Below, piece after piece: positions 21,307 to 46,222 of a DNA stretch of 64,000 nt. The stretch's first letter is position 1. The number at the start of each line of letters is the position of its first letter. Source of the stretch: Ruminococcus sp. (GTDB taxonomy: Bacteria; Bacillota; Clostridia; Oscillospirales; Ruminococcaceae); contig NZ_JAFYYT010000029.1 in the NCBI RefSeq assembly GCF_017549005.1, forward strand, positions 266-64,265, in the 5' to 3' direction. The notes beneath the pieces are model-generated. The model saw only the letters and a list, made by a program, of their open reading frames with translations, ran no database searches and was not told where the DNA came from. A program made the translations under genes and the position numbers.

Positions 21307-21327
21307 AAAACACATATCTCATAAATG

Positions 21328-24015: not shown

Positions 24016-24119
24016 AACACAAAGTGCTTTAATCAGCGGCAGTCAGTGCAGAGGCCGCTGAAAGCAAATGATCTTTACGTCTAAAGCGGCGTAAAAACTA
24101 TTGAAAGGAAGTATTGCAA

Positions 24120-31082: not shown

Positions 31083-31116
31083 ACAGGACGGAAATATTTC
31101 CGTCCTGTCTTTTTTA
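31083..31116. terminator. Bidirectional intrinsic terminator between convergent genes
   Basis: ACAGGACGGAAATATTTCCGTCCTGT perfect hairpin followed by CTTTTTTATT. Confidence 0.75.
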
Positions 31117-31145: not shown

Positions 31146-33575
31146 TTATTGCAGATCGCCCAGCTGAGTTGCTGCACCGATAAATAACGGTACGTTGTTC
31201 TTGTCAACTATCATGTACACGAACGGTCTGTCAAGATATATGTATACCTCTTTCTTCGGTTCCGGCATTATTTCACATCCGGCTGCCATTCCTACAGCTG
31301 TTACGGCTGCTGCCTTTGTGCCTGATTCTGTCAGCTCTATCTTTGTCTTATGAAGTACCGTGGAAATATACAGGGGATCGGCTCCCTCAACGGAAAGATC
31401 GTTTATCTTTGAGAAATCAGCTCCGCCGCTGAAAGCTGTGGGCATTCCCATTTCCTTGAGGAAATCGTTCAGCGTCTTTCCGTAATCGTACTCGAACTTC
31501 GGTATCATAGTGTAAAGGTCAATACTATCGGGGTCCTCACATTCGCTGAGACCTGCAAGGAGCTTCTCGGCGTCAAGATTCTTCACATATTCAACTATAT
31601 CATTGTCACGGGGAAGTATTCCCACAAAGCTGTAATCGCCGCCTGCATAGGGCTTCTTGAAAGCGTCTGCGTCGCCGAGGTCGAAGTACTCGCGCTCCTG
31701 GCTGATAAGCTGCTTTATCGTGCGCTTATTGCCGTTAAGGTCTGTGAACTTGCCGTCGGGAGCCCAATCATACTGATTCTGCCATTCCGCCTCGAAATAC
31801 AGGGTATTTATGAGCATCATGAGCATTTCTTCATTTTCTGTGGGTTCAAGGGAGTCCTTTTCGAGGAGAGTCGGTATCATGCCCTCGGTGTTCCTGCTTA
31901 CCCAGCTGTTTATATCGGCAACTGTATCGTTGTTGAATGCAGCCTTGTACAGCTCGGCGTTATAGTACTCCTTATTCTTTTCAAGGAATTCATCATAGAC
32001 CTTGAATGTTTCCTTGTCCTTGAACCATATGGAGTCCGCCATATATACCTTTTCCTTGTCCTTCTTAGGAAGATTCCTTATATAGCCCGCCATGTACTCG
32101 TTGAGCTGACCGACAGTAAGTCCGTTTCCGAGGACCTTCTCCATTTCATCGAGTGTCTTGCCGTCAGCTCCGTTTGCGGTCATAGTAAGAGCTGCCGATA
32201 TGGAAACAGGCGAGATAAGCATATTCTCCTCTTTCTGTTTAGTAGGGTCAAATGCCTTTTTCAGCAGCTCTATGCCAAGATTCATCTCTGCAGCTGCAAA
32301 TTTTTCATCTGCTGTCCTGCCCTCGGCTGCCTGTACGCTTACCTTGTCGTCAAGGCGGACGCTGCTCATCGGGGTGGAAGTATCAGTGTTTTCCGACTTC
32401 TTGTCAAGCTCATACAGCAGACCGTCAAGGCTGAAGGCTTCCTCATATATCATCTTGTACCAGGGCTTCAGCGGATTCCTGATGAACATATTTCCCATAT
32501 GCCATACAGTTACAGTATCTCCGCCCTCATATTCAAGATCGATAGTCCAGCTTGTGCCATTATAATGATCGGGATTTTCGGAGAAATTGGTTATGAGGTG
32601 CAGCCCCGAGAGATAATCGGCTACAGCCTGAGCTTTCTCACCTTCAAATGTATACTTTCTCGTGCCCATCATGCCCGTTACAACAGCGCTTTTTATCTTG
32701 CCGTCTTTCAGTCCGAGGAGATCTGCCGCAGACTGTCCCTCGCTTATATCAAAGCCGAGAAGCTGTTTCTGTATGCTCTGCGCGTCGCCAACTGTCAGTC
32801 CGTCACCGTTGAAGTCGCCGTTTTCCTTGCCCTGAGCGGTAAGGTGGTTGTCGGCAGTACCGTTTTCGCCGTATTTATTGGGATTTGCAAGAGCCTGCAT
32901 AATAAGCACGGCGTCTGCCATATCTACTGTGCCGTCACAGTTTACGTCGCCCTTTAGCACATCATGATCGGGAGACGTGCTCGTTCCAATCGTTTCATCT
33001 GTATCTGCACCGAGATAATCAAAATAGAAATAACAGAAATGTTTATTGAGCTGTACATAATTCATAGCAGCCGCCAGAAGCTCCGCTTCTTCATCTTCGT
33101 CCTTAACCTTTGGAATAATCGCAAACTGAGCACATTTATTACCGTTACACGTCATTGCCTGCTTATGCCTGATATCAAATAATTTCTCTGGAAGAGCAGC
33201 CTCTTCTTTTATTTTTTCATCGTCAAGGACTTCTCCGAACTGATCGCCCTCATAAAGCACATTTACAATTTCATTCTGTATAATATCATTTACCTTTCCA
33301 ATCTCTCTATTTAATCTCTCTTTTGTCCATAATGTGCATTCTACACCGCTTGTCTTTTCTTTTTCATCAAGCAAGGCTTTCACTTCATCGGCTGACAGCT
33401 TGCTAAACTCGTCAAAGGTATACTCCTTTTCCGACTTTTCATCAGCTGTAGTCAGTGAAGCAGTTATATCCGTATCACTGTCTGCGTTGTCTGCATTTGC
33501 GAACGTCAATGCAGACGATGCTGCCGTCATCACTGCTGCCATTAATGCCGCAATGATCTTTTGTGATTTTCTCAT
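31146..33575 (-). CDS. Cellulosomal serpin: unknown N-terminal module + internal dockerin + unknown module + C-terminal serpin domain
   Basis: Signal peptide; dockerin GDVNCDGTVDMADAVLIMQALANPNKYG...GDGLTVGDAQSIQKQLLG. Serpin motifs: 'ISPVSISAALTMTANGADGKTLDEM', 'LINTLYFEAEWQ', an inhibitory-type hinge 'ESGTKAAAVTAVGMAAG' and 'LDRPFVYMIVD'. RBS spacing favours the ATG at 33575. Confidence 0.85.
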   Translation of the reverse strand: MRKSQKIIAALMAAVMTAASSALTFANADNADSDTDITASLTTADEKSEKEYTFDEFSKLSADEVKALLDEKEKTSGVECTLWTKERLNREIGKVNDIIQNEIVNVLYEGDQFGEVLDDEKIKEEAALPEKLFDIRHKQAMTCNGNKCAQFAIIPKVKDEDEEAELLAAAMNYVQLNKHFCYFYFDYLGADTDETIGTSTSPDHDVLKGDVNCDGTVDMADAVLIMQALANPNKYGENGTADNHLTAQGKENGDFNGDGLTVGDAQSIQKQLLGFDISEGQSAADLLGLKDGKIKSAVVTGMMGTRKYTFEGEKAQAVADYLSGLHLITNFSENPDHYNGTSWTIDLEYEGGDTVTVWHMGNMFIRNPLKPWYKMIYEEAFSLDGLLYELDKKSENTDTSTPMSSVRLDDKVSVQAAEGRTADEKFAAAEMNLGIELLKKAFDPTKQKEENMLISPVSISAALTMTANGADGKTLDEMEKVLGNGLTVGQLNEYMAGYIRNLPKKDKEKVYMADSIWFKDKETFKVYDEFLEKNKEYYNAELYKAAFNNDTVADINSWVSRNTEGMIPTLLEKDSLEPTENEEMLMMLINTLYFEAEWQNQYDWAPDGKFTDLNGNKRTIKQLISQEREYFDLGDADAFKKPYAGGDYSFVGILPRDNDIVEYVKNLDAEKLLAGLSECEDPDSIDLYTMIPKFEYDYGKTLNDFLKEMGMPTAFSGGADFSKINDLSVEGADPLYISTVLHKTKIELTESGTKAAAVTAVGMAAGCEIMPEPKKEVYIYLDRPFVYMIVDKNNVPLFIGAATQLGDLQ

Positions 33576-33599
33576 AAGAACCATCCTTTCATAAATAAA

Positions 33600-34598
33600 T
33601 TATTGCCGCGGGGGTATTGTTTTTATTATTTCGTAAATATCCATGCCGCTTCTGCAGTACAGATAATACTCTTCATTCTCCTGAAACCTTATTGCAACAG
33701 CGTCATCACCGACATAACCGCTGACAGCGTATACGTCTGCCGAACACTTCTTTTCCTCGCCTGCGATACGCTGACCGCTGAGCATTTCCGCGCTGTCTGT
33801 CCATGCTCCCACTACATCGGGCGAGATCATGTACAGGCTGTTGTAGACATAGTCACTGCCGTAAATGTATGCATATGGATAGCGCTCGTTTATCGGAAGC
33901 TGTAACCATTGCTGCTCCTCATAGCCGCTGTCGTCTCCGCCTGAACCGCCGCCACTCATGCCGCCTGTTCCGCCTCCGAAACCGCTGCCTCCGCCGCTGT
34001 AGCCGCCTGCACCGCCGTTCTGACCGCCGTTATTGCCGTCGCCTGTAAGGCCGCCGTTTCCGCCGTCATCACCGCCCGGAACTTCGTCTGTCCTTGTGGT
34101 GGTTACTTCCCGTGTAGTCACCGTATTGGCTGCCGTAGTTGCAGATGTCACGGTAGTTTTCAATGTAGTTTCAGCTGTAGTGCGCTCAGTAGCCGCTGCT
34201 GTCGTTACACGAGTTGAAGCCTTCTGCGTGGTATCTGCCGCTGTAGCCACATCAGTTTTTGCTGTAGTGACAGTGGTCGCCGATACAGTCGTTTTTGTGC
34301 CGCTCTTTTCGGCTGTGGTCACAGCTGTTGTGCGGGCCGTGGCTGCTCTTGTTGTGGTAATGGGCATAGCTGTGCCCTGTACGGAGGTCGTTTCCGCTTC
34401 TATGATATTATCAGGGACAGGAATCGTATCGGGACGGGTATGACCCTTCCATACGCCAAAACCGATAATAACAGCACCTATCACGCCTGCCGCCGCAGGT
34501 ATCACCCTTTTGGCAACAGCTTTCCTGTGCTTTCTCTTTTTCTCGGTTTCATCGCGGACTTCAAGTACATATTTTGCCATTTCTTCATATGTTTTCAT
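33600..34598 (-). CDS. Single-pass membrane protein with Thr/Gly-rich extracellular linker; putative anti-sigma/sensor partner of the upstream ECF sigma
   Basis: Start 'MKTYEEMAKYV' at 34598, overlapping the sigma gene end by 14 nt. About 35 cytoplasmic aa with a KKRKHRK stretch, then TM segment AAAGVIGAVIIGFGVW, a T-rich and G-rich linker, and a ~100-aa C-terminal domain. Paralogue of 40912..41730. Confidence 0.6.
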   Translation of the reverse strand: MKTYEEMAKYVLEVRDETEKKRKHRKAVAKRVIPAAAGVIGAVIIGFGVWKGHTRPDTIPVPDNIIEAETTSVQGTAMPITTTRAATARTTAVTTAEKSGTKTTVSATTVTTAKTDVATAADTTQKASTRVTTAAATERTTAETTLKTTVTSATTAANTVTTREVTTTRTDEVPGGDDGGNGGLTGDGNNGGQNGGAGGYSGGGSGFGGGTGGMSGGGSGGDDSGYEEQQWLQLPINERYPYAYIYGSDYVYNSLYMISPDVVGAWTDSAEMLSGQRIAGEEKKCSADVYAVSGYVGDDAVAIRFQENEEYYLYCRSGMDIYEIIKTIPPRQ

Positions 34599-35139
34599 AT
34601 TTGAAGCCCCCCTTTTCAAGTTCTGTCCTAAGTGCCTTCCTTGCATTATACAGGAGATTTTCTATCTGTTTTCTTGACCTTCCGATGATCTTTGCAGTTT
34701 CCTCATTGCTGAACTCCTCGAAATAGGTAAGGTACAGCACCTGCTGATACTCCTCCTTTAGCCTGCATATAGCATGGCGGAGGTTTATCTTCTGCTCGCT
34801 GACAAGATAGCTCTGTTCAAGGTCGGCTTCGTCCGCAAGTATACCGCAGTCGCTGAGAGGTACTCCCCTGTTTCTGCGGAGCTTTCTCACGTTGTCTATA
34901 GCGATATTCCTGCCGATAGTGTAAAGCCAGGTCTTGAATGAGCTTTTGCCGTTGAATCTCGGCTTCTTCACGGCGAGCCTGATAAAGGTATCCTGCACGC
35001 AGTCCTCGGCTGCGCTGATATCATCGGTATAACTACGCAGATACAGCATGAGACCGTCCCTGAACTCACGGACTATCTCGACCATACCGCTGTCATCGCC
35101 TGCAAGGAAACGGCGGTAGCTACTTTCACCGTTATCCAT
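34585..35139 (-). CDS. ECF-type sigma-70 family RNA polymerase sigma factor (paralogue 1)
   Basis: 184 aa. Region 2: 'EDCVQDTFIRLAVKKPRF...FKTWLYTIGRNIAIDNVRK'. Region 4: 'YQQVLYLTYFEEFSNEETAKIIGRSRKQIENLLYNARKAL'. Confidence 0.9.
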   Translation of the reverse strand: MDNGESSYRRFLAGDDSGMVEIVREFRDGLMLYLRSYTDDISAAEDCVQDTFIRLAVKKPRFNGKSSFKTWLYTIGRNIAIDNVRKLRRNRGVPLSDCGILADEADLEQSYLVSEQKINLRHAICRLKEEYQQVLYLTYFEEFSNEETAKIIGRSRKQIENLLYNARKALRTELEKGGFKYENI

Positions 35140-35176
35140 GTATGGACTCCTTTCGCGTCTGATCCTGCGCTCTTTA

Positions 35177-35213
35177 CATATTAGACGTAACGAGAGCGGA
35201 AAAACACTAAGCT
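35177..35213 (-). promoter_or_regulatory. Conserved bipartite motif (candidate ECF-dependent promoter) upstream of sigma paralogue 1
   Basis: Minus strand reads AGCTTAGTGTTTTTCCG-CTCTCGTT-ACGTCTAATATG. The 17-mer and the 11-mer recur identically, with the same 8-nt spacing, at 37272-37307. 'CGTC' matches the ECF -10 core. Confidence 0.55.
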
Positions 35214-35309
35214 GATTTCAGGTTAAAATAAAAAATTATGTAAGAATGGTTCGTTCGCTAATATTAATCTAACATCTATACTGCGGATTGTCAATAGTTT
35301 TACGGAAAT

Positions 35310-35346
35310 AAAAAAAGCTCCGCTCACCGAAGCAAGCAGAGCTCAT
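35310..35346 (-). terminator. Intrinsic terminator after 35353..37185
   Basis: Minus strand reads GAGCTCTGC-ttgcttcggtga-GCGGAGCTT followed by TTTTTTTATTT. Confidence 0.6.
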
Positions 35347-35352
35347 ATCGTT

Positions 35353-37185
35353 TTATTGTGCGCTATTTTCAAGAAGAGCCTTTTTCATCGCTGTCAGGTC
35401 AAATACGTCGAGCTTGTTATCCGCGCAGAGGTCTGCGGATCTCCAGTTTACAAGCTTCGCGCCGTCAGCTCCGAGGAGCCACCTTTGCAGGGCTACGATG
35501 TCGCAGATGTCGAAGATAGCGTCACCGTTCACATCGCCTCTGAACGCTGCATAAGACGTTGCGCCCATTCCCTCAAAATGAATGCCCTCACAGCATGATC
35601 TGAGCTGCACGTAATTAAGCATTGCGGTATAAAGCGTGACCGCCGTTTCCCTGTCGTCGGCATAAGGCTTTATGACACAATTGCAGTACTTTCTGTATAT
35701 TGGACCTGTCTCCTCATTTCCTGTAAGGCAGGTCATTGAAACAGACGGTTGTATATCAAAAAGCTCGGGAGAAAGCTCGAGTGCAGAGTATATCTTGCCG
35801 ATATCCCATATAACGTCGCCGTCTTCGATAAGCTCATGCATATCATCTGCACTGTAGACCTCTGTCACAAGCTCTTCTCCGTTTCCGGCGGTCATAAACG
35901 GCTTCGGGTCGAGCTGTACCTGATAGAAGCCGTTGCTGAGAACGGTCTCGGGCTTATAAATGTGATATCCCTTTTCCCATGTCATGCCCTTTGCTTCGTA
36001 AAGCGCCTCTATTTCAGCCGTTGTCATACTGCGGATATCCTCGAAAGTATAGTCCTTATCGGCATTTATTACAGATGTATCTGTCTCTGACAGCTGATCA
36101 TCCTTTACGCTGTCAACGGAATAGACCTTTTTCATATACACCGTGATCTCATTCTGTTCCGGGGAGGTAAAGCAGAATGGGGTCTGCGACTTTTCTTCAT
36201 CAATTACATAACAATAGTTCCTGTTTTCAACATATGAAAACGCCCAATGATATACGATACTTATATAATTATTCAATATAACGTCCTCAATGACAAATGG
36301 ATTGTTTTCGTTTACATTCCATTCATCAAGAGAGACACATCCGCCGAAAAACGGGTCTGAAGGCATGATCATTGAAGAAGAATAGGCGTTGAATACAACA
36401 TCCTTGCCTTTGGGATCGCTGAAAAGCTCATTTGTCTCCTCGTCGATAACTGTGACTTTGATATCTCCGTATTCGACCTTATCCTCTCTCGGGAGCTTAT
36501 GTACATATACCGTTATATCGTTAACTTTCTCCTTGACCTGCCATAAAAATGCACTGGAATCTTTGGCATAGTCTATTGCATAATAATAATCGTCGTCCCT
36601 CATGTAGTATGTGTCGTTCACAATACTACCTGCAGTGTTTAACGGTACATTTTTCAATGTAAGCGGATTGCAGAGAGCAGCATCCCAATTAACGCGGAGG
36701 TCGGAAATACTGAACAGACTGTGCTCTGTGAAAAGCTCATTCGTATCTTCATCAATGACAGTGATGTTGACTGTCCCACAGTTGTCGTTCTGCTTTATTG
36801 GCTCTTTCTTCATGTATATTGTAATATTATATGTTTCTTCGCTTTTGTCGTAAAAGAACTGCGAATTTGTCGTCTTGTAATCTATACTGTACTTATATCC
36901 GTCATACTCCCTCGCTGCACAGTCTGAAACGACAACATAGCTTGCTTCCTTTAAAACGTTCTTTACGGTAAAGGGATTGCTCTCCAAGGTGTTCCAGCTC
37001 TCGTCACATGGAAGTATACTGAAACAGCAGTCCAGGTCAAAAAGCTCGTCCGTCTCCTCATCGATAACGGTAACTATCATGTCTCCGTACTCTCGTTGTA
37101 TCCTCTTTGCCTCCGCACTTGGAACGCACATCATCGACAAAGCAAATACCGATGACATAATAAACGCCAGTATTCTTTTCCTCAT
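35353..37185 (-). CDS. Dockerin protein with three tandem ~100-aa repeats and a module shared with the serpin protein
   Basis: Signal peptide. The repeats begin YGDMIVTVIDEETDELF, CGTVNITVIDEDTNELF and YGDIKVTVIDEETNELF, and each ends ...ITIYMKKEP / ITVYVHKLP / ITVYMKKVY. The module '...YTFEDIRSMTTAEIEALYE...LYTAMLNYVQLRSCC' is homologous to serpin-protein residues '...YTFDEFSKLSADEVKALLD...LLAAAMNYVQLNKHFC'. C-terminal dockerin: GDVNGDAIFDICDIVALQRWLLG...DNKLDVFDLTAMKKALL. Confidence 0.8.
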   Translation of the reverse strand: MRKRILAFIMSSVFALSMMCVPSAEAKRIQREYGDMIVTVIDEETDELFDLDCCFSILPCDESWNTLESNPFTVKNVLKEASYVVVSDCAAREYDGYKYSIDYKTTNSQFFYDKSEETYNITIYMKKEPIKQNDNCGTVNITVIDEDTNELFTEHSLFSISDLRVNWDAALCNPLTLKNVPLNTAGSIVNDTYYMRDDDYYYAIDYAKDSSAFLWQVKEKVNDITVYVHKLPREDKVEYGDIKVTVIDEETNELFSDPKGKDVVFNAYSSSMIMPSDPFFGGCVSLDEWNVNENNPFVIEDVILNNYISIVYHWAFSYVENRNYCYVIDEEKSQTPFCFTSPEQNEITVYMKKVYSVDSVKDDQLSETDTSVINADKDYTFEDIRSMTTAEIEALYEAKGMTWEKGYHIYKPETVLSNGFYQVQLDPKPFMTAGNGEELVTEVYSADDMHELIEDGDVIWDIGKIYSALELSPELFDIQPSVSMTCLTGNEETGPIYRKYCNCVIKPYADDRETAVTLYTAMLNYVQLRSCCEGIHFEGMGATSYAAFRGDVNGDAIFDICDIVALQRWLLGADGAKLVNWRSADLCADNKLDVFDLTAMKKALLENSAQ

Positions 37186-37271
37186 AAAAACACTCCTTTT
37201 TATTGATTTCCCGTTCCCTTTCTGTATTTATCTCATTTATCTGCTTTCAGCTCAGGTTTTACACCCTGCAT

Positions 37272-37307
37272 ATATTAGACGTATGCAAGTCGGAAAAACA
37301 CTAAGCT
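37272..37307 (-). promoter_or_regulatory. Second copy of the conserved bipartite motif, upstream of 35353..37185
   Basis: Minus strand reads AGCTTAGTGTTTTTCCG-ACTTGCAT-ACGTCTAATAT, about 87 nt upstream of the start codon at 37185. Confidence 0.55.
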
Positions 37308-37441
37308 TTTCTGGTGTTAAACAATAAAAATATCACGCATGCCGTATGTCACTTTAAATATAGCAATATTTCGAGAAATTGTCAATATCAATGAATAATT
37401 TTCTTTTTTTGACATATATTATACCGAAAGGGTGATGATTT

Positions 37442-37909
37442 ATGAAGATCAAATGGACCGACCTTATCATATGGGTAGTTGCAACCGAACTGGTGGGAGC
37501 TCTGTCGGCTCTTATCTCGGGTGGGAACTTCTCGGAGTTCTACAGCTCCCTTGAACAGCCGCCGTTTGCTCCGCCCGGGTGGCTTTTTCCCGTGATGTGG
37601 AGCATTCTCTACGCGCTCATGGGAGTTTCGGCTTATCTTATATGGGAGAGCGGCAATACGCGCAGAAAAGGAGCGATCATACTGTACGGAGCGCAGCTTT
37701 TTGCGAATTTCCTGTGGACTCCCGTATTTTTCGGATTGAAGTCCCTGAAAGGTGCGACAGTTGTGGTTGTCATCATGCTGATACTCATAACCGCCATGAT
37801 AATATCGTTCCTGAGGATAAACAAGACTGCCGCATATCTCAACCTTCCATATCTGTTTTGGACTGCCTTCGCCACTTACCTCACAATTGGCGTGACAGTG
37901 CTGCAATAA
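37442..37909 (+). CDS. tspO: TspO/MBR family tryptophan-rich sensory protein
   Basis: 155 aa with five hydrophobic segments. Motifs: 'LEQPPFAPPGWLFPVMWSILYALMGVSAYLIW', 'QLFANFLWTPVFFGLKS' and 'NLPYLFWTAFATYL'. Confidence 0.9.
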   Translation: MKIKWTDLIIWVVATELVGALSALISGGNFSEFYSSLEQPPFAPPGWLFPVMWSILYALMGVSAYLIWESGNTRRKGAIILYGAQLFANFLWTPVFFGLKSLKGATVVVVIMLILITAMIISFLRINKTAAYLNLPYLFWTAFATYLTIGVTVLQ

Positions 37910-38047
37910 CAAAAAAACTGCCAATACTGTGATACTCATACAGGAGCTTTGTACTTTCTATTCAGGGAAAACCTTTTGGAAAAGATTTTCCACGATATAA
38001 AGCATCAGTTCCTATATATGCATCACAGTATCGGCATTTTTGCTGTT

Positions 38048-39169
38048 TTAAACTTTTTCTTCGCTTATAAGCTTATCGCTGTCCCATTTCTGGCGCTTTT
38101 TGCTGCCGTCGGTGCAGGTGAGTATCCCCTCGCCGCAGCGCAGGTCGTTCTGCCACTCGCCCTCAAAGACGTTGCCGTTTTTGAAATAATACACTCCATG
38201 TCCCTGCTTGAGACTGTTGGAATACTCTCCCTCGAATCTGTCACCGTTTTTGTAATAGAACACGCCGTGACCATTTTTGAGGTTGTCCTTCCACTCGCCG
38301 TTGTATTTGTTTCCGTTCTGTGAGGAGAATACTCCCCTGCCGCTTCTGACGTCGTTTTCAAAGCCGCCCTCGTACAGATCGCCGTTTGCCCATGTAAAGA
38401 CTCCCTGTCCGTGCTTGACGCCCTCCTTGAAACCGCCTTCGTATTTATTGCCGTTGGTGTAGGAGAATACTCCCTTGCCGTGCATTTTTCCCGTAAAACC
38501 TACTTCCCCCTCATAGGTGCCGTTCTCAAACCTAAGCACCCTTTTAGCGTCGGGTGAGGGCTTTGGAGTTCCGCTCACAAGCTTCTCGCTCACCATTTTT
38601 CCGTTCTTGTATATGCGCTTGTATACGCAGTCGTCACGGTCTGACAGGGTAGCCTCTCCCTCGAGAAGTCCGTCTATCCACTCTCCCTCGATAACGCTGC
38701 CGTTTTCGCAAGTATACACGCCTTTCCCGTGATATCTGCCCCTGTTCCATGTACCCTTGAACTTTACTCTGCCGTTTTCGTAGTATTCCGTACCTGCGCC
38801 GCTTTTCCAGCCGTCTTTCCACTCGCCGTCGTATAATGTCTTTCCTGTCTGGCTGAACTCCTGTCCTTTTCCGTGAAATCTGTCGTCCTTGAAGTCGCCT
38901 GCATACGTAAGGGACTTGCTTGTATCGTCGCCGCCCTGCAGCATATCATAGTAGCCCTTAGCGTATTTTTTTCCAAAGCCGCAAAGCTTTCCATTCTGCC
39001 ATTCGCCGTCATATTCGATCTCAAGACTGTTTATGAAAACTCCGTGACCGTGGGGTTTCCTGGACGAGTCAACGTGCCCCGAATAAAAACCAGTACCCAG
39101 CGTTTTGCTCTCAAAATGAATATTGTTCGCGATCCCTTTGCTGACCTTTAAGAAATCCATCATGCTCAT
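38048..39169 (-). CDS. MORN-repeat protein
   Basis: More than 10 tandem repeats of the form Y.GE[WF].[ND]G...G.G (e.g. YDGEWQNGKLCGFG, YDGEWKDGWKSGAG, YEGGFKEGVKHGQG, YNGEWKDNLKNGHG). No signal peptide. Confidence 0.85.
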   Translation of the reverse strand: MSMMDFLKVSKGIANNIHFESKTLGTGFYSGHVDSSRKPHGHGVFINSLEIEYDGEWQNGKLCGFGKKYAKGYYDMLQGGDDTSKSLTYAGDFKDDRFHGKGQEFSQTGKTLYDGEWKDGWKSGAGTEYYENGRVKFKGTWNRGRYHGKGVYTCENGSVIEGEWIDGLLEGEATLSDRDDCVYKRIYKNGKMVSEKLVSGTPKPSPDAKRVLRFENGTYEGEVGFTGKMHGKGVFSYTNGNKYEGGFKEGVKHGQGVFTWANGDLYEGGFENDVRSGRGVFSSQNGNKYNGEWKDNLKNGHGVFYYKNGDRFEGEYSNSLKQGHGVYYFKNGNVFEGEWQNDLRCGEGILTCTDGSKKRQKWDSDKLISEEKV

Positions 39170-39268
39170 AAATATTTCTCCTTATCGTAGCTTTAAGGTT
39201 TAAGTGGAGAATCTGACGAGATAAATTATCAAAAACATTATGCAATTAATACATATTTCATCTGTTAT

Positions 39269-39297
39269 ATTGTACCATATTAATTCAACAAAGTCAA
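39269..39297 (-). promoter_or_regulatory. Sigma-A-type promoter of the MORN gene
   Basis: Minus strand reads TTGACT (39297-39292), a 17-nt spacer, then TGgTACAAT (TACAAT at 39274-39269). Confidence 0.5.
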
Positions 39298-39391
39298 TAA
39301 TCCATTTATGCATTCAGGTGTAATTCCGCTTTGTCAGTCCGAGTTTTCGCGGAAAAAACTTTTACAGCTGATATATATTTTACAGTTTTGA

Positions 39392-39421
39392 CAAAAATGA
39401 CCCCCGAACAAATCGAGGGTC
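39392..39421 (-). terminator. Intrinsic terminator after 39448..40899
   Basis: Minus strand reads GACCCTCGA-tttgt-TCGGGGGTC followed by ATTTTTGT. Confidence 0.55.
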
Positions 39422-39447
39422 TCAGCGTAAAATCATTATTCACTTAT

Positions 39448-40899
39448 TTAATGGCATTCAATTACAACGACCGCAGGCTGTGTTGCAACAGGTTCACCGT
39501 CAGTCGTTACAGGTGAAGTTTTCGTGTCATAGCTTGATATATTATCAAGCGACAACGCCTTGAGTTCAGCCTCAGTTACATTAATTACAAGTTCATCTGC
39601 CGCCTCATCATACTCATAGCTGATGTTCTGCTCCTTCAGCTTCTGAACGGAGATCTGCTTCATATCATGATAGTACGCTTTTATCGCTTCTGACAGGTTC
39701 TCCTGCGGAGCATAATCGAACTTTGCGATATCTTCTTCAACTTTTTTACGAAGGAACTTACCGTCCACGATATACTTTGCAAGGAAATCCCCGCCGTAAA
39801 ACGCAACTCTCTCCTCATACAGCGACTTAGCCCATATCTCGCCGTTTCCGTCGCCTGTTGTGTAAAGAGCTTCACCGTATTTCAGCTTCTCGCCCTCCTT
39901 GTCCAGCTGTATAAGCTTGTCAAAGAGGTGAGAGTTCTCGTCTCTCTCGTCTGCATATTTCTGTATGGTCATGCCCTTGTATTCATAATCGTAATCAAGC
40001 TTAAAGCCAGGAACAACACTGAAAACCGTATTCGGATCAGTATTATTCTTCAAAAGCTCGTACAGCTCATAGGTCACAGCGACTCCGTCCACACTTGATA
40101 ACCCAGCCACCTGAGACTGCAATTCCTGACGGAGTTTCTCCTCATCAAAGGGAACATACTTCTTATTCCAGTTGACTGTCTGTCCCTTGTATTCGGACTT
40201 TGGAACAGCTATCTGCGCGAAGCATACCGAGAACATATCGTCCTCTCCGTGTTTTCTTACATAGTCCTCTATGCAGATATCTATCGTACTGTCAGAAAAA
40301 GTGATATCTCCTATTCCGTAAAGCGGTCTGTCTGAGCCTGCTCCTTGCGGAATGGTATTGAGAAGAAGAATGTTTTCGCCGAAATAGCTTTCATCATATT
40401 TGGAAAGATATTTTGATACAATGTGCTCATAGTACAGCGGTTCGAGGTATGCTTTAAGCTCGGCGGTATTTGTAACTACGGCTTTTAATATCTCAGCATT
40501 CCATGTTACATTCCTATAATCATCAGACGCAGGATACCATACAAGCTCTTTGCCGTACTTGGCATCAACGGTCTCTTTTATGCCGAGGAGCTTTTTCTGT
40601 ATAGCCTGCGCGTCGCCAACGGTAAGTCCGTCGCCGTCCGTGTCGGCATTTGCCCTGCCCTGAGCTGTAAGATGAAGCTGCTCTGTGCCGTTTTCACCGA
40701 ATCTGTTCGGGCTTGCAAGAGCCTGCATTATAAGCACTGCATCCGCCATATTTACCGTTCCGTCGCAGTTTGCGTCGCCTTTAACTGTTGAAGCAGCCGT
40801 GGCTGAAACATCATTTGCCATAGCTGCACCCGGAATACAAGCAGCTCCCATACAGCAAGTTACAGCCGTTAGCATTGCGATAAACCTCTTGTTTTTCAT
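39448..40899 (-). CDS. N-terminal dockerin protein with uncharacterised ~370-aa C-terminal region
   Basis: Signal peptide; dockerin GDANCDGTVNMADAVLIMQALASPNRFG...GDGLTVGDAQAIQKKLLG. I do not recognise any domain in the remainder. AAGGAG RBS. Third gene of sigma cassette 2. Confidence 0.8.
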   Translation of the reverse strand: MKNKRFIAMLTAVTCCMGAACIPGAAMANDVSATAASTVKGDANCDGTVNMADAVLIMQALASPNRFGENGTEQLHLTAQGRANADTDGDGLTVGDAQAIQKKLLGIKETVDAKYGKELVWYPASDDYRNVTWNAEILKAVVTNTAELKAYLEPLYYEHIVSKYLSKYDESYFGENILLLNTIPQGAGSDRPLYGIGDITFSDSTIDICIEDYVRKHGEDDMFSVCFAQIAVPKSEYKGQTVNWNKKYVPFDEEKLRQELQSQVAGLSSVDGVAVTYELYELLKNNTDPNTVFSVVPGFKLDYDYEYKGMTIQKYADERDENSHLFDKLIQLDKEGEKLKYGEALYTTGDGNGEIWAKSLYEERVAFYGGDFLAKYIVDGKFLRKKVEEDIAKFDYAPQENLSEAIKAYYHDMKQISVQKLKEQNISYEYDEAADELVINVTEAELKALSLDNISSYDTKTSPVTTDGEPVATQPAVVVIECH

Positions 40900-40911
40900 A
40901 AGATCACTCCT

Positions 40912-41730
40912 TTACTTTTTTGATTCTTTAAAAGGCAGTTTCCTTGTAAACGGTATCTGTTCTCCTTTTTTTATTGCGACAACTATATCATCGGATTCAA
41001 GTATTGTATAGAACTTTACTGTCGGATTGTCATGGAAAATGCCTTCAAAATCTGTACCATAACCGAGAAATTCATCAAGAGTATATTCATTTTTCCCGTC
41101 ATCCCCACTGTCATCAGTTCCAATATAGTAGTAAGTAACTCCGTCAATGTAAACTTTTGAGAAAACCCCACCCATGTTATTACCGCCTGAAGTAGTTATC
41201 ACAGAAGTTGTAATATGTGCATCATCATGTGTAGTTAAAGTTGTATTGGCACTGCTTTGAGTTGTCATTGTAACGTTCACTGATGTTTCAATAACAGAAG
41301 TCTGCTGAGTGGGCGGTTCTGTCACGGGAGCAGCAGTGGTTTCGGTCGTATTTGCCTCTGTTGTTTCGGTATTTGTGCTTGTTTTCACAGCGGAAGTCGT
41401 TTCTTTTTCCGTCTTAGATGTCCCAGTCACGGTAGTTTTTGCGGTCTTTGTGGCTGAGACAGTGGTTTTAGAGGAAGTCCTTACCGTCGGCACCTGCGAA
41501 GTCGATTCAGCAGCAGTTGTCGGAACTTCTATAATAATATCAGGTGACGATGGTATAGACGGGATATTCCTCGAGTAGTTCCAGTACCCCAGTCCCAGCC
41601 CTACAGTCAGGCACAGACAGGCAATAACAGGAACAGTATGCATGATTATACGCTTCTGCCGTTCTTTTTTCTTTATGTGTTCGGTTCGTCTGGAAAGGAC
41701 ACTCTGATACATTTCAAAATCATTCTTCAT
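40912..41730 (-). CDS. Single-pass membrane protein with Thr/Ser-rich linker; putative anti-sigma/sensor partner (paralogue 2)
   Basis: Start 'MKNDFEMYQSV' at 41730, analogous to MKTYEEMAKYV in paralogue 1, overlapping the sigma gene end by 11 nt. Basic stretch KKKERQKR, TM segment VPVIACLCLTVGLGLGYW, T/S-rich linker and a small C-terminal domain. Confidence 0.6.
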   Translation of the reverse strand: MKNDFEMYQSVLSRRTEHIKKKERQKRIIMHTVPVIACLCLTVGLGLGYWNYSRNIPSIPSSPDIIIEVPTTAAESTSQVPTVRTSSKTTVSATKTAKTTVTGTSKTEKETTSAVKTSTNTETTEANTTETTAAPVTEPPTQQTSVIETSVNVTMTTQSSANTTLTTHDDAHITTSVITTSGGNNMGGVFSKVYIDGVTYYYIGTDDSGDDGKNEYTLDEFLGYGTDFEGIFHDNPTVKFYTILESDDIVVAIKKGEQIPFTRKLPFKESKK

Positions 41731-42271
41731 ATTCAAAGCCGCCCCTTTCCAGTTCAGTTTTCAGAGCCTTTCTGGCGTTGTACAGCAAGGTCTCAATCTG
41801 CCTTTTCGATTTTTTCATGATAATAGCAGTTTCCTCGTTGCTGAATCCCTCAAAATATGACAGATACAATACCTGTCGGTATTCTGTTTTCAGGCTGTGC
41901 AAAGCCTTATGAACAGCTCTCTTTTGTTCGCTTTTTATGTAATTGCCTTCGATGCTTTTCTCGTCGGCAAGATTTTCCTGCGATTCCAGCGGAACGATGA
42001 TGAATTTGGCGCGTTTTCGCAGATGTTTTGCGGTAATATTGCGCCCAATGGCGTAAAGCCACGTCTTAAAGGAGCTTTTTTCCGAAAACTTCGGACAGCG
42101 TATGGCGAGCTCCGCAAATGTGTCCTCGGTCATCTCCTCAGCTGTGCGGATATTCTGCACGAAGCTGTTGATGTACAGTATCAGACCCTGTCGGTATTCG
42201 CGGATTATCTCGTGGAGCCCTTCATCATCACCTGCAAGGAAACGGCGGTAGCTACTTGCACCGTTATCCAT
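41720..42271 (-). CDS. ECF-type sigma-70 family RNA polymerase sigma factor (paralogue 2)
   Basis: 183 aa, collinear with 34585..35139. Compare MDNGASSYRRFLAGDDEG... with MDNGESSYRRFLAGDDSG..., 'SSFKTWLYAIGRNI' and 'YRQVLYLSYFEGFSNEETAIIMKKSKRQIETLLYNARKAL'. Confidence 0.9.
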   Translation of the reverse strand: MDNGASSYRRFLAGDDEGLHEIIREYRQGLILYINSFVQNIRTAEEMTEDTFAELAIRCPKFSEKSSFKTWLYAIGRNITAKHLRKRAKFIIVPLESQENLADEKSIEGNYIKSEQKRAVHKALHSLKTEYRQVLYLSYFEGFSNEETAIIMKKSKRQIETLLYNARKALKTELERGGFEYEE

Positions 42272-42532
42272 GGGGAGATTCCTCCTCTCAGGGGTATTGA
42301 TTTATCCCTTTCATTTATTAGTACCTTTTTTTCGTCAGAACTCAAAGTTTTTTCAAATATTATTTATTTTTAACTATTATATCACAGTCAAATTCACATT
42401 GCAATGTATTTTGTGTTAATAATAGCTCTAAATAGCCAGTTCGCTGATAAAGCACTTAAATATACAGAACCTGCACATAATATATAATGTATACCACCGC
42501 CGTTAAGCAGAGCAGCTATTTTGGTTTTTCCA

Positions 42533-45600: not shown

Positions 45601-46222
45601 AAATAATTCTCCCAATTTCCTTTCAATAAACGGCGGACTGAACGTTAACTTTGAAGAATGTTACGGCTGCGACCGCATCAGACTCAGCGGAAACGTTACC
45701 AAAAACGGCTGGCTGGTGCCTAAACTCACCTTTACAAAATGCCCTGATCTCAATCTGGAATACCTCATAAAAAACGCAAACATCAAAAACGAGCAGCCGG
45801 GACTTACCAAGAACAACCTCCATGTCAAGGTCGACAATTCATATGATTTCTTCATTGTAGACAATGATTACTTTCATACTATATCTGAGCTTGAGGAATG
45901 CAGACAGACCGTAAAGCTCAGTGAATATGATACTGTTGGTCTTTCAAATGGCAAAACTTTCAAGACCAAACCATACGGATATGTAAAATACGTAGAACTG
46001 ACTGTTATCCATAACGATAATTATGGAGATGATTATCCTGTAACCATAACTCTTTATGATAACGGCAAAAAGATAAGCGAACCCACCAAGCTCACATTTG
46101 AAGCAAACAGGACCTACAAGATCGAAGTAAATGACTATGTGGATGAACTTCAGGCTGTATTTACACATTCAAATTCAAAAAATCCCAACATAGACATGAA
46201 TATGGAAATCATCAAATACTAA
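42674..46222 (+). CDS. DUF285/BspA-type leucine-rich-repeat module + internal dockerin + ~230-aa Thr/Ser linker + pectate-lyase-superfamily (tailspike-like) beta-helix domain
   Basis: Signal peptide. Six 25-aa repeats 'F..C..L..[LI]D[LV]S.F[DN]T..[VA]T.M..M'. Dockerin: GDVNNDGFIDAVDSSQVLVYYAKVST...NRDGLIDAVDASLILAYYAHIST. Long T/S linker. The C-terminal domain opens with 'TPQQFGAKGDGSTDDTQAFRKLFKAA', the signature N-terminus of Pectate_lyase_3/GH28-related beta-helices. Confidence 0.85.
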   Translation: MNRKKIFASFMAFVMSFGAIQSPNFSSDIFTAATEEHNGETVSFDIETGTLTLQGKVDRDDVSEYNRNENVKNIIAAKGTILPENCGELFMGSKAEKIDLSNAESANVTNMHSMFEECDLLTYIDLSGFNTKNVTDMNSMFLSCRSLISVDVSDFDTSNVTGMSRMFKNCSSLTALDVSGFDTSKAAPLFSMFEGCSSLKALDVSGFDTSNATYMFNMFKGCSSLKVLDLSGFNTKNTVSMVGMFMDCSALTILDISGFSTESLMNMYESAGGCSSMFENCSALKTIYAGNALTFSDGDGTDLFAGCNKLVGGNGTKFDENNTGISYARIDSNEKHGYFTERPDYTLGDVNNDGFIDAVDSSQVLVYYAKVSTDSDGGFTDGQKLAADMNRDGLIDAVDASLILAYYAHISTNNETTTTTTGTTTSSTTSTTTTTTTSTTSSTTSTTTTTTSTTTSTTKPTTTTTSTTSTTTTTTTTTTRTSTTTTRTTTTTTKPTTTTTSTTSTTTTTTTRTSTTTARTTTTTTKTTTTTTSTSTTTTSTTTTTKPTTTTTSTTSTTTTTTTRTSTTTTRTTTTTTKTTTTTTSTTTTTSTTTTTTTTTSSTTTTTSTTTTTTSTTSTTTSTTTTTTTTTTTVPQSSTTTTVLTTSFADYMIPPELELEINSSIVVGDPSQYLTPQQFGAKGDGSTDDTQAFRKLFKAAYDDSSISVGWRHAKSIFIPSGLYIINGTVIDENSDIRFAMFDVSGAGRESTTIQFNGDVLFDNQTHDDPDDPNKDRRPIFGFTTFRNIGFNGTDKNTFMNIRDSVKMVDGVNVGVNDGVQRLQFISCTFGHCNKILNTIDSTIMLSEITFAYCKIASCGTVNNPCKLFVLNCPQSVNWRFIYTDMESFHGDAFYYMKGTSISLLGGSIIPLSGSVFNFDLYTAEKTDTAGPSNSPHVLCINSRFEIRDESSLIKSASYYGNTTKALFKACGFGTASNNSPNFLSINGGLNVNFEECYGCDRIRLSGNVTKNGWLVPKLTFTKCPDLNLEYLIKNANIKNEQPGLTKNNLHVKVDNSYDFFIVDNDYFHTISELEECRQTVKLSEYDTVGLSNGKTFKTKPYGYVKYVELTVIHNDNYGDDYPVTITLYDNGKKISEPTKLTFEANRTYKIEVNDYVDELQAVFTHSNSKNPNIDMNMEIIKY
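44042..44458 (+). repeat. Near-identical in-frame tandem DNA repeats inside the Thr-rich linker
   Basis: The unit starting 'acgacaaaaccaactactaccactacaagtacaacatcaaccac...' recurs at 44042, 44147 and 44303. The 156-nt units 44147-44302 and 44303-44458 are nearly identical and each encodes KPTTTTTSTTSTTTTTTTRTSTTT(A/T)RTTTTTTKTTTTTTST... Confidence 0.8.

What the first reader, a model, noticed from the sequence alone, without database searches (positions are those of the whole stretch)
31146..42271. Two paralogous 'ECF sigma / Thr-rich membrane protein / dockerin protein' cassettes: a possible cellulosome-linked signalling module
Cassette 1 comprises the sigma gene 34585..35139, membrane protein 33600..34598 and dockerin-serpin 31146..33575. 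Cassette 2 comprises the sigma gene 41720..42271, membrane protein 40912..41730 and dockerin protein 39448..40899. The sigma factors are clearly homologous along their full length. Both membrane proteins start inside the last codons of their sigma gene (14- and 11-nt overlaps). Each has a short basic cytoplasmic head, one TM segment, a long Thr/Ser(/Gly) linker and a small C-terminal extracellular domain. This is formally analogous to the SigI/RsgI systems that couple polysaccharide sensing to cellulosome gene expression in Clostridium thermocellum. It differs in using ECF-type sigmas and unrelated sensor proteins whose cytoplasmic part (~35 aa) is too short for a classical anti-sigma domain. 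The output genes, a protease inhibitor and an unknown dockerin protein, are non-catalytic cellulosome components.
Basis: partly seen in the sequence, partly recalled or inferred. Interest (0 to 1): 0.72.

Follow-up and report, generated by a model that had tools for sequence, protein, structure and literature searches.

The report
ECF sigma cassettes controlling dockerin proteins
Two neighbouring three-gene operons in a Ruminococcus flavefaciens-type genome each pair an ECF sigma factor and a previously undescribed short-headed membrane anti-sigma-like protein with a secreted cellulosome (dockerin) protein, and their shared promoter motif gives a testable first lead on how this rumen bacterium controls accessory cellulosome parts.

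Summary
Both cassettes lie on the minus strand. Each is an ECF sigma gene, an overlapping single-pass membrane protein gene, and a tightly linked dockerin-protein gene (one a serpin).

The sigma/membrane-protein pair belongs to a large Clostridia family with more than 575 loci in species-representative genomes. Its membrane partner has a conserved ~30-residue head (MKxYxEMAxxVLxRRDEY, then a basic run), one TM segment and highly variable ectodomains. No Pfam or NCBIfam model covers this partner.

A conserved bipartite ECF-like motif, CTTAGTGTTTTT-N12-CGTCTAAT, sits 25-50 nt upstream of the sigma genes. The sigma-2 clade uses a GGTACTAAT variant. The same motif precedes the 610-aa dockerin gene between the cassettes. 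In rumen metagenomes it precedes three stand-alone dockerin genes, one of them a Doc-serpin.

In Ruminococcus-type loci the third gene is usually a dockerin protein. In three relatives the anti-sigma-like ORF itself runs into a dockerin.

The cassette-1 sensor domain folds confidently (pLDDT 93) but resembles no CBM or any solved fold, so polysaccharide sensing is unsupported. The signalling-module reading is supported; the signal is unknown.

Verdict: a new variant of ECF sigma/anti-sigma signalling, apparently undescribed for ruminococcal cellulosomes.

The parts
42376..42404 (-). SigA-type promoter-like site upstream of cassette 2 (TTGCAA-17-TATAAT with TG)
   Evidence: The same element is conserved in L067, L055 and L047.
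42317..42347 (-). ECF-type bipartite motif, type 2 (CTTTGAGTTCTG-N11-GGTACTAAT), about 45 nt upstream of the sigma-2 ATG
   Evidence: The GGTACTAAT variant occurs only with sigma-2-clade genes, 15 of 15.
41720..42271 (-). ECF sigma factor 2 (183 aa)
   Evidence: Pfam r2 plus r4_2; TIGR02937 84 bits against a 42.9 cut-off. 59% identical to sigma 1.
40912..41730 (-). Anti-sigma-like single-pass membrane protein 2 (272 aa): head MKNDFEMYQSVLSRRTEH, basic run, TM, Thr-rich linker, ~85-aa C-terminal domain
   Evidence: Overlaps sigma 2 by 11 nt. No Pfam family above cut-off.
39448..40899 (-). Secreted dockerin protein (483 aa): signal peptide, N-terminal dockerin, unassigned body
   Evidence: Dockerin_1. 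The dockerin matches R. flavefaciens dockerin 5M2S_B at E 2e-19. Residues 262-457 are conserved in the third genes of L067, L047 and L055.
39399..39421 (-). Terminator-like hairpin ending the cassette-2 operon
37357..37385 (-). SigA-type promoter-like site upstream of the 610-aa gene (TTGACA-17-TATATT)
   Evidence: Aligns with the equivalent site of the sigma-1 promoter region.
37274..37305 (-). ECF-type motif, type 1 (CTTAGTGTTTTTCCG-N9-ACGTCTAAT), upstream of the 610-aa dockerin gene
   Evidence: Both half-sites are identical to those of the sigma-1 promoter.
35353..37185 (-). 610-aa secreted protein with C-terminal dockerin; predicted sigma-1 target
   Evidence: Dockerin_1 at 550-605. Residues 375-570 resemble residues 51-232 of the serpin protein. 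The gene and its promoter are absent from the syntenic locus L001.
35315..35344 (-). Strong terminator-like hairpin between the 610-aa gene and cassette 1
   Evidence: 13 pairs followed by a T-run.
35266..35294 (-). SigA-type promoter-like site upstream of cassette 1 (TTGACA-17-TAGATT)
35180..35211 (-). ECF-type motif, type 1 (CTTAGTGTTTTTCCG-N9-ACGTCTAAT), 41 nt upstream of the sigma-1 ATG
   Evidence: Conserved in L001, L002, L003, L004, L005 and L007, and in 17 metagenome sigma loci.
34585..35139 (-). ECF sigma factor 1 (184 aa)
   Evidence: Closest solved relative is B. subtilis SigW, E 9e-14.
33600..34598 (-). Anti-sigma-like single-pass membrane protein 1 (332 aa): head MKTYEEMAKYVLEVRDE, basic run, TM, Thr-rich then Gly-rich linker, ~100-aa C-terminal sensor domain (33603-33923)
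   Evidence: The sensor domain appears in only 15 representative clusters and is C-terminal in every full-length hit (~300-350 aa). AF2 pLDDT 93. No significant PDB fold match.
31146..33575 (-). Secreted dockerin-serpin (signal peptide, N-terminal module, dockerin, middle region, serpin)
   Evidence: Serpin E 8e-75 and Dockerin_1. Closest solved serpins are 2PEE and tengpin, E 1e-76. Orthologous sigma/anti-sigma/Doc-serpin arrangement in L001 and in the distant L011.
31083..31108 (.). Palindromic hairpin between the convergent serpin and MutS-like genes; likely bidirectional terminator

Best explanation
Each cassette is an autoregulated operon of three genes.
- An ECF sigma factor.
- Its cognate single-pass anti-sigma factor, of a new short-headed family. 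The ~30-residue N-terminal head is proposed to hold the sigma at the membrane. A long Thr-rich stalk carries a small sensor domain through the cell wall.
- A secreted dockerin-bearing accessory cellulosome protein as the co-transcribed output.

Proposed working: a basal SigA-type promoter keeps the sensor pair present. An extracellular cue at the sensor domain leads to destruction of the anti-sigma, most likely by regulated proteolysis. The freed sigma then reads the CTTAGTG-T-tract...CGTCTAAT promoter in front of its own operon and in front of further dockerin genes, here the 610-aa gene. The two paralogues are insulated from each other by different head sequences and different -10 variants (CGTCTAAT versus GGTACTAAT).

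What is shown: gene order, overlaps, family conservation, the promoter motif and where it occurs.
What is inferred: sigma-head binding, proteolytic release, and transcription from the motif. The signal is unknown.
For: - ECF identity of both sigmas.
- About 60 of 80 related loci have an overlapping downstream gene (-14 to -35 nt) encoding a conserved head, basic run and one TM segment. The head consensus is MKnYeEmAqsVLeRRDEY.
- Ectodomains fall into about 29 unrelated BLAST clusters while the head stays constant, as expected for a sensor family.
- The bipartite motif was found 34 times in 949 kb of related loci, about 30 of them 25-47 nt upstream of a sigma ATG.
- An exact 19-base version occurs in only 24 stretches of 241 million metagenome records. 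Seventeen of these are upstream of this sigma family.
- The non-sigma Ruminococcus-like targets are all dockerin proteins: the window 610-aa gene, L098 CotH-dockerin, L082 unknown-dockerin, and L103 Doc-serpin.
- The -10 variant GGTACTAAT tracks the sigma-2 clade 15 of 15. The head variant EMYQSVLSR tracks the same clade.
- Third genes in Ruminococcus-type loci mostly carry dockerins.
- The sigma-1 type goes with a Doc-serpin also in L001 and in L011, whose sigma is only 60% identical. The sigma-2 type goes with the W_dock2 body domain in L047, L055 and L067.
- Cassette 2 is present or absent as one block relative to the syntenic L001 locus.
- Terminators bracket each unit.
Against: - No direct evidence that the head binds the sigma.
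- The head shows no significant amphipathic moment and matches no known anti-sigma domain model.
- The promoter motif is inferred from conservation only, with no transcript data.
- The 5' half-site lacks the AAC triad typical of ECF -35 elements.
- There is no folded juxtamembrane domain that could relay a conformational signal along the disordered stalk, so the release mechanism is open.
- The window itself is rich in dockerin genes, so adjacency within this window alone would be weak evidence.
Confidence: 0.72

Rival explanations
1. The signal is a plant polysaccharide, as in SigI/RsgI. The C-terminal domains would bind cell-wall glycans and so couple substrate availability to expression of accessory cellulosome proteins.
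For: - The overall layout is the same as RsgI: sigma, single-pass anti-sigma, long Ser/Thr linker, outer sensor, with dual SigA/alternative-sigma promoters (PMC6056542).
- An ECF-like pair with a carbohydrate-active sensor exists in C. thermocellum, sigma24C-Rsi24C with a GH5 module (PMC3990059).
- One related locus has a GH30-CBM-dockerin enzyme 159 nt downstream of the anti-sigma gene (L020).
Against: - The cassette-1 sensor has no CBM or GH Pfam hit. Its confident model has no fold match at E below 0.1, and the best match is not a carbohydrate binder.
- The 20 longest ectodomains of the family have no CBM, PA14 or GH hits.
- The outputs are a protease inhibitor and unknown proteins, not glycanases.
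- The family is common in taxa not labelled as cellulosome producers.
Confidence: 0.15
2. The signal is proteolytic damage. Foreign proteases clip the exposed stalk or sensor, the shortened anti-sigma becomes a substrate for intramembrane proteolysis, and sigma 1 switches on the cellulosomal serpin. This would be a stress-matched circuit like lysozyme-RsiV-SigV.
For: - The output of cassette 1 is a serpin with an inhibitory-type hinge (ESGTKAAAVTA, read). The sigma-serpin linkage is conserved in L001 and L011, and a stand-alone Doc-serpin carries the same promoter (L103).
- ECF systems often sense the stress that their output counters, as with RsiV (PMC6066255, PMC4183432).
- A disordered stalk with an unusual ~50-residue Gly-rich stretch needs no conformational relay if clipping is the signal.
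- Cellulosomal serpins are thought to protect the complex from proteases (PMC12484212).
Against: - The same sensor-domain type is combined with non-serpin outputs (L003, L047, L067, L098).
- A well-folded, conserved sensor domain argues for ligand binding rather than passive clipping.
- Thr-rich linkers are usually protease-resistant (general knowledge).
- No experimental data.
Confidence: 0.12
3. The third-gene product is a co-sensor or partner of the anti-sigma, not merely an output. The anti-sigma ectodomain would engage its cognate dockerin protein or the cellulosome itself, so that the module reports cellulosome assembly or occupancy.
For: - In three divergent relatives the anti-sigma-like ORF continues in frame into a dockerin-bearing protein: L002 11526-13187(-), L026 and L034. 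Dockerin E-values are 3e-15, 3e-12 and 2e-5. This is a Rosetta-stone-type hint.
- Sigma clade and third-gene type co-vary.
- The cassette-1-type sensor domain occurs only in this anti-sigma family. In loci with readable downstream genes it sits next to dockerin genes.
Against: - Third genes are very diverse (serpin, LRR, CotH, GH30, LPXTG, PASTA).
- The promoter also drives dockerin genes far from any cassette (L082).
- The fused ORFs keep an internal RBS, ATG and signal peptide, so two separate products remain possible.
- The sensor model is not cohesin-like.
Confidence: 0.1
4. The membrane protein is not an anti-sigma, and the dockerin adjacency is coincidental in a dockerin-rich genome region.
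For: - No known anti-sigma domain is detected.
- At least six dockerin genes lie in this 64-kb window.
Against: - The overlap with the sigma gene and the head are conserved across about 60 loci from several families.
- The same third-gene types stay with the same sigma clades in other genomes.
- The promoter motif is shared with other dockerin genes.
Confidence: 0.04

Closest known systems
SigV-RsiV (Bacillus, Clostridioides, Enterococcus; lysozyme sensing)
   Same: An ECF sigma and a single-pass anti-sigma with a short cytoplasmic part are encoded in one operon with a downstream output gene. An extracellular ligand-binding domain decides proteolytic release (PMC6066255, PMC4183432).
   Different: The sigma scores 65 and 59 bits against the NCBIfam SigV model, whose cut-off is 190. 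The membrane proteins have no DUF4179 or RsiV-type domain. A ~150-residue Thr-rich stalk separates the TM segment from the sensor. The outputs are dockerin proteins.
SigI-RsgI of Clostridium thermocellum and relatives
   Same: Multiple paralogous autoregulated sigma/anti-sigma pairs. The anti-sigma has an outer sensor on a Ser/Thr-rich linker. Targets are cellulosome genes, and promoters are dual SigA/alternative-sigma (PMC6056542, PMC10328401).
   Different: SigI lacks a sigma-4 domain, whereas these sigmas have r2 plus r4_2. There is no RsgI_N domain and no CBM, PA14 or GH sensor. The -10 is similar (CGTC-type) but the 5' element differs. The organism is a Ruminococcus, for which that paper lists no SigI set.
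Sigma24C-Rsi24C (Cthe_1470/1471) of C. thermocellum
   Same: An ECF-like sigma with a membrane anti-sigma in a cellulosome producer, induced on biomass (PMC3990059).
   Different: Rsi24C carries a GH5-like sensor module. The proteins here have a small domain with no detectable relative outside this family. Sequence relatedness to Rsi24C was not tested.
Class II anti-sigma domains (CnrY/NepR type; from memory)
   Same: Very short cytoplasmic sigma-binding segments, showing that about 30-45 residues can suffice.
   Different: No sequence similarity was detected to any Pfam anti-sigma family. The structural class of the head could not be tested.
Dockerin-serpins of R. flavefaciens FD-1 (SIGN-Doc-SERPIN, ORF01368/01369) and C. 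thermocellum PinA
   Same: The same modular output protein: signal peptide, dockerin, serpin (PMC2930009, PMC12484212).
   Different: Those papers do not mention an adjacent sigma/anti-sigma pair or a shared promoter (one search found no occurrence of 'sigma'). The window protein has an extra N-terminal module shared with the 610-aa protein.

Membership tests
ECF (group 4) sigma-70 factors | Only sigma-2 and sigma-4 domains, about 180-200 aa | tested here: met
   Pfam Sigma70_r2 plus Sigma70_r4_2 only, 184 and 183 aa. TIGR02937 at 99 and 84 bits against a 42.9 cut-off.
ECF (group 4) sigma-70 factors | Co-transcribed cognate regulator, usually a single-pass anti-sigma | tested here: met
   The downstream gene overlaps by 14 and 11 nt. 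The pair is conserved in about 60 of 80 loci.
ECF (group 4) sigma-70 factors | Autoregulation from a conserved group-specific promoter | tested here: inconclusive
   A conserved bipartite motif lies 25-50 nt upstream of the sigma ATG in many loci. No transcription data.
ECF (group 4) sigma-70 factors | Assignment to a numbered ECF group (ECF Hub HMMs) | not testable with these tools
   The HMMs are not available, and the supplements of PMC7826278 are not held. No NCBIfam equivalog reached its cut-off.
SigI/RsgI | Sigma with a sigmaI-C domain in place of sigma-4 | tested here: not met
   A clear Sigma70_r4_2 domain is present.
SigI/RsgI | Anti-sigma with an RsgI N-terminal domain and a conserved autoproteolytic periplasmic domain | tested here: not met
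   No Pfam hit in either membrane protein. The TM segment is followed directly by a low-complexity linker.
SigV/RsiV (ECF30) | Sigma reaches the SigV equivalog score | tested here: not met
   NF053879 at 65.2 and 59.3 bits against a cut-off of 190.
SigV/RsiV (ECF30) | Anti-sigma with DUF4179 (TM plus amphipathic helices) and an RsiV ectodomain | tested here: not met
   No Pfam hits.
Class I anti-sigma domain (zf-HC2, RskA, RseA_N and related) | An ~80-aa four-helix anti-sigma domain detectable by Pfam models | tested here: not met
   The head is about 30-35 aa, with no hit even at E up to 10.
Anti-sigma factor (functional class) | Binds and inhibits its sigma | not testable with these tools
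Only genomic coupling and head/sigma-clade co-variation are available.
Type I dockerin | Duplicated Ca-binding segment matching PF00404 above its gathering score | tested here: met
   27.4, 23.6 and 26.2 bits against a 22.9 cut-off for the serpin, 483-aa and 610-aa proteins. 5M2S_B R. flavefaciens dockerin at E 2e-19.
Serpin (inhibitory) | Full serpin fold | tested here: met
   PF00079 E 8e-75, covering profile positions 3-367 of 370. 2PEE and tengpin at E 1e-76.
Serpin (inhibitory) | Inhibitory hinge in the reactive-centre loop, and actual protease inhibition | tested here: inconclusive
   The hinge ESGTKAAAVTA fits the inhibitory consensus (read; the consensus is from memory). Activity cannot be tested here.

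The most novel reading that the evidence does not exclude
These cassettes are self-contained, gain-and-loss 'plug-in' units. Each puts one accessory cellulosome protein under a dedicated surface sensor that is itself physically tied to the cellulosome. The tie is direct where the anti-sigma ORF ends in a dockerin (L002, L026, L034). In the unfused cassettes it would run through the small C-terminal domain binding the cognate dockerin protein or a scaffoldin. The sigma would then report cellulosome occupancy, tension or damage rather than a soluble ligand, with the serpin cassette acting as a protease-damage alarm. That would be a membrane-to-cellulosome signalling link of a kind not described for any cellulosome.
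Probability: 0.15. Interest if true: 0.85.

Novelty: new variant of a known kind. Interest (0 to 1): 0.62.

Why it matters
How R. flavefaciens regulates its more than 200 dockerin proteins is stated to be unknown (PMC4081043). Reviews cite only SigI/RsgI of the thermocellum group (PMC12484212).

This finding supplies three concrete things:
- a sigma family;
- a partner-protein family with a defined 18-residue signature;
- a highly specific promoter motif, with clade-specific -10 variants, that already picks out dockerin genes away from the cassettes.

Regulons can therefore be predicted genome-wide and tested with simple reporter assays. The finding also adds a widespread, unannotated short-headed anti-sigma family in gut and rumen Clostridia. 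Family members whose ORF ends in a dockerin hint at a direct link between transmembrane signalling and the cellulosome.

Tried and rejected
- Structure of the 483-aa dockerin protein from a 3-sequence alignment failed (pLDDT 34, unusable). Its body domain remains unassigned.
- Word-indexed homologue searches with the sensor domain and the 483-aa body returned only 1 and 2 proteins.
- Fold search of the sensor model against the PDB gave no match at E below 0.1. The best was the NisI C-terminal domain at TM 0.44, with weak lipocalin-like hits, and I do not interpret these.
- Profile comparison of the cassette-2 C-terminal domain with the cassette-1 sensor family gave probability 15%, so common ancestry is undecided.
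- The hydrophobic-moment test of the head as an amphipathic helix was not significant.
- A search for sigma residues that discriminate the CGTCTAAT and GGTACTAAT clades found only three positions (37, 112, 176), none in the expected -10-reading loop.
- ECF group assignment was not possible: no HMMs, and the supplements are not held.
- The Rfam scan of the window found nothing.
- A loose regular expression for the promoter is not enriched in the window by itself (4 hits against 2.3 expected). The argument rests on near-identity of the sites and on the specificity of the exact pattern in large collections.
- Literature searches found no paper linking ECF sigmas to ruminococcal cellulosomes. This covers only the held library.

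Full report
**Observation.**
- The two 184/183-aa proteins contain only sigma-70 regions 2 and 4. They pass the NCBIfam ECF superfamily model at 99 and 84 bits (cut-off 42.9) but reach no equivalog cut-off. They are 59% identical end to end.
- The next genes start 14 and 11 nt inside the sigma genes. Each encodes a protein with a basic ~35-residue head, one hydrophobic segment, a long Thr/Ser (in cassette 1 also Gly) stretch, and a short C-terminal domain. The two align only over head, TM and linker.
- The third genes follow after 24 and 12 nt, each with its own ribosome-binding site. They encode a signal peptide-module-dockerin-serpin protein and a signal peptide-dockerin-unknown protein.
- The dockerins are 75% identical to each other. 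The cassette-2 dockerin matches a solved R. flavefaciens dockerin at E 2e-19.
- The organism is R. flavefaciens-like. The best related locus is R. flavefaciens UBA1190, with 92% sigma identity.

**A large family, not a local curiosity.** A pattern scan of one genome per species found more than 575 confirmed loci encoding relatives of these sigmas. They occur in Ruminococcus, other Oscillospiraceae, Acutalibacteraceae, Lachnospiraceae and Acetatifactor.
- In about 60 of the 80 loci fetched, the gene after the sigma overlaps it by 14-35 nt. It begins with the same signature, consensus MKnYeEmAqsVLeRRDEY, followed by a run of Lys/Arg and one TM segment.
- Beyond the membrane the proteins are unrelated, falling into about 29 BLAST clusters with lengths from 170 to 737 aa. 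A constant cytoplasmic head with variable outer parts is the signature of a sensor family.
- No Pfam or NCBIfam model matches the head, even at E up to 10.
- A head this short is not without precedent. RsiV is cleaved by signal peptidase after residue 66, just outside its TM segment (PMC6066255). Class II anti-sigma domains are also short (from memory).

**Promoter and predicted regulon.** Aligning the regions upstream of the sigma genes reveals a bipartite motif. It reads CTTAGTGTTTTT-N12-CGTCTAAT(AAGTGAA) and ends 25-50 nt before the ATG.
- The 3' half is the CGTC-type -10 familiar from Firmicutes ECF promoters. The 5' half (TTAGTG, 17 nt upstream) is followed by a T-tract, a feature reported for B. 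subtilis ECF promoters (cited in PMC6056542).
- In 949 kb of related loci a relaxed version occurs 34 times, about 30 of them directly upstream of a sigma gene.
- The sigma-2 clade uses the variant GGTACTAAT with a spacer one base shorter. All 15 such promoters belong to sigmas closer to sigma 2. The same clade has the head variant MKNDxEMYQSVLSR. Sigma, head and promoter thus diverge together, as expected for insulated paralogous circuits, although common descent alone could also produce this.
- In the window the motif occurs three times: before sigma 1 (35211-35180), before sigma 2 (42347-42317), and before the 610-aa dockerin gene (37305-37274).
- The 610-aa gene's upstream region matches the sigma-1 upstream region in both half-sites and in an upstream TTGACA-17-TAnAtT SigA-like promoter.
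- An exact 19-base version of the motif occurs in only 24 stretches of 241 million metagenome records. Seventeen sites precede sigma genes of this family. Three precede secreted dockerin proteins with no sigma in between: a CotH-dockerin protein on a contig that also has a full cassette (L098), an unknown dockerin protein with no sigma within 10.8 kb (L082), and a signal peptide-dockerin-serpin (L103).
- The remaining hits are one unrelated repeated element and a lipoprotein gene, and look like chance.
- Every plausible non-sigma target is therefore a dockerin protein.

**Third genes.**
- Where a third gene follows within about 120 nt in Ruminococcus-type loci, it nearly always encodes a secreted dockerin protein: L001, L003, L006, L007, L009, L011, L014, L038, L047, L052, L055 and L067. 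L020 and L057 have one at about 160-175 nt.
- The pairing is specific. Sigma-1-type cassettes carry a Doc-serpin in L001 and also in L011, a rabbit-gut Clostridia genome whose sigma is only 60% identical. Sigma-2-type cassettes in L047, L055 and L067 carry proteins sharing residues 262-457 of the window's 483-aa protein.
- In other taxa the third gene encodes other surface proteins: LRR plus choline-binding repeats, LPXTG, or PASTA plus DUF5050.
- The general theme is 'ECF sigma, anti-sigma, surface protein', and cellulosome producers have dockerin versions of it.
- Compared with the syntenic UBA1190 locus, the window has two clean insertions: the whole of cassette 2 (39364-42512) and the 610-aa gene with its promoter (35348-37382). 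The units are gained or lost as blocks.

**Sensor domains.**
- The last ~100 residues of the cassette-1 membrane protein form a domain found in only 15 representative clusters among 1.84 billion proteins. In the 12 full-length hits (295-348 aa) it lies at the C-terminal end, and the other three hits are short fragments.
- With that alignment AlphaFold gives a confident model (pLDDT 93, pTM 0.85): two short helices, a six-stranded antiparallel sheet and a C-terminal helix.
- Foldseek finds nothing at E below 0.1 in the PDB. It is not a recognisable CBM.
- The cassette-2 C-terminal domain may be a divergent, shorter relative, but hhalign probability is only 15%.
- None of the 20 longest ectodomains in the family has a CBM, GH or PA14 hit.
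- Two of them end in a dockerin (L026 and L034). A third such ORF lies in R. flavefaciens YL228 (L002 11526-13187, minus strand).
- In all three, the anti-sigma head, TM and linker run in frame, without a stop, into a protein that keeps its own ribosome-binding site, ATG and signal-peptide-like segment.

**Mechanism.**
- Shown: gene order and overlaps, family conservation of the head, the promoter motif and its locations, and the nature of the outputs.
- Inferred from how ECF systems work: the head sequesters the sigma at the membrane. The Thr-rich stalk carries the sensor through the wall. A cue leads to proteolytic removal of the anti-sigma. The sigma then transcribes its own operon and other genes carrying the motif.
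- The SigA-like promoters upstream would provide basal expression, as described for SigI6 targets (cited in PMC6056542).
- What the sensors detect is open.
- I rank an unknown ligand first, then a plant polysaccharide (0.15), proteolytic damage matched to the serpin output (0.12), and coupling to the cognate dockerin protein or the cellulosome itself (0.10, suggested by the fused ORFs).

**Comparison with known systems.**
- It works like SigV-RsiV: short head, sensor ectodomain, output gene in the operon. At the systems level it works like SigI-RsgI: paralogous sets tied to cellulosome genes.
- It is a member of neither. The SigV model, DUF4179, RsgI_N and the sigmaI-C architecture were all tested and not met.
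- C. thermocellum sigma24C-Rsi24C is a precedent for an ECF-like pair in a cellulosome producer, but with a GH5 sensor (PMC3990059).
- Dockerin-serpins of R. flavefaciens FD-1 are known components (PMC2930009), but that paper does not mention a sigma.
- I found no paper linking ECF sigmas to ruminococcal cellulosomes, and regulation there is described as not understood (PMC4081043).
- The ECF group number could not be determined. Given its abundance, the sigma family is probably already a numbered but uncharacterised group.

**Verdict.** I rate it a new variant of a known kind of system, with a specific and cheaply testable promoter/regulon prediction.

Noticed in passing
L002:11526-13187 (-); L026:8521-10734 (+); L034:1110-3137 (+): In three divergent genomes the anti-sigma-like ORF (head, TM, Thr-rich linker) continues without a stop into an EF-hand-rich protein ending in a true dockerin. 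At the junction an RBS-like motif, an ATG and a signal-peptide-like segment are retained, so a fusion protein and a separate secreted protein may both be made.
   Followed up: partly
window 35348-37382 and 39364-42512: Relative to the syntenic R. flavefaciens UBA1190 locus (L001), the window has two block insertions: the 610-aa dockerin gene with its promoter, and the complete cassette 2. L001's serpin protein is longer (961 aa) and contains the module that is in the separate 610-aa protein here.
   Followed up: partly
window 31146-33575 (residues 51-232) and 35353-37185 (residues 375-570): The serpin protein and the 610-aa protein share an unassigned ~160-residue module immediately N-terminal to their dockerins (25% identity, E 3e-11). 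It has no Pfam hit. The 610-aa protein also has three ~110-residue N-terminal repeats (YGD..VTVIDEET.ELF) with no Pfam hit.
   Followed up: no
window 33600-34598 (residues ~172-225 of the membrane protein): An unusual ~50-residue Gly-rich stretch (GGDDGGNGGLTGDGNNGGQNGGAGGYSGGGSGFGGGTGGMSGGGSGGDD) lies between the Thr-rich linker and the sensor domain. It is absent from cassette 2.
   Followed up: no
window 33600-34598, 40912-41730 and homologues (L001, L003, L008, L011, L025, L057, L067): A conserved juxtamembrane pattern W-x(5-6)-P-x-(I/V)-P follows the TM segment in many Ruminococcus-type members. It could be a processing or wall-spanning motif.
   Followed up: no
window 34598-34646 and equivalent positions in many loci: An alternative upstream start (MKRRALxM..., overlap -35 nt) is conserved in many homologues, but it lies in the sigma C-terminal coding region in another frame. 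The conservation may simply reflect the sigma sequence.
   Followed up: no
window 209-11248 (-): A giant 3679-aa ORF with no Pfam family at E up to 1e-4.
   Followed up: no
window 18352-21306, 21563-23806, 24114-26105, 42674-46222 (all +): There are further dockerin or fibrolytic genes in the window: Doc plus Cthe_2159 plus CotH; GH30 plus CBM4_9; a 663-aa dockerin protein; and a DUF285/LRR-dockerin protein with a ~350-residue Thr-rich tract. None has the ECF-type motif upstream.
   Followed up: partly
L002 6269-13707: R. flavefaciens YL228 has three sigma genes of this family within 7.5 kb, two tandem and one convergent. They carry type-2, type-1 and type-2 promoters respectively, so clustering of cassettes recurs in other strains.
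   Followed up: partly
L083, L087, L088, L092: Four metagenome contigs share the same sequence, CTTAGTGTTTTTA(A/G)(T/C)TCTCCACT(C/A)CGACTAAT, which matches the promoter pattern but has no ORF downstream. It is probably an unrelated conserved element.
   Followed up: no
window 1-16000 versus 18000-26000: G+C rises from about 0.38-0.42 to 0.47-0.51 across 18-26 kb, the region holding several dockerin genes.
   Followed up: no
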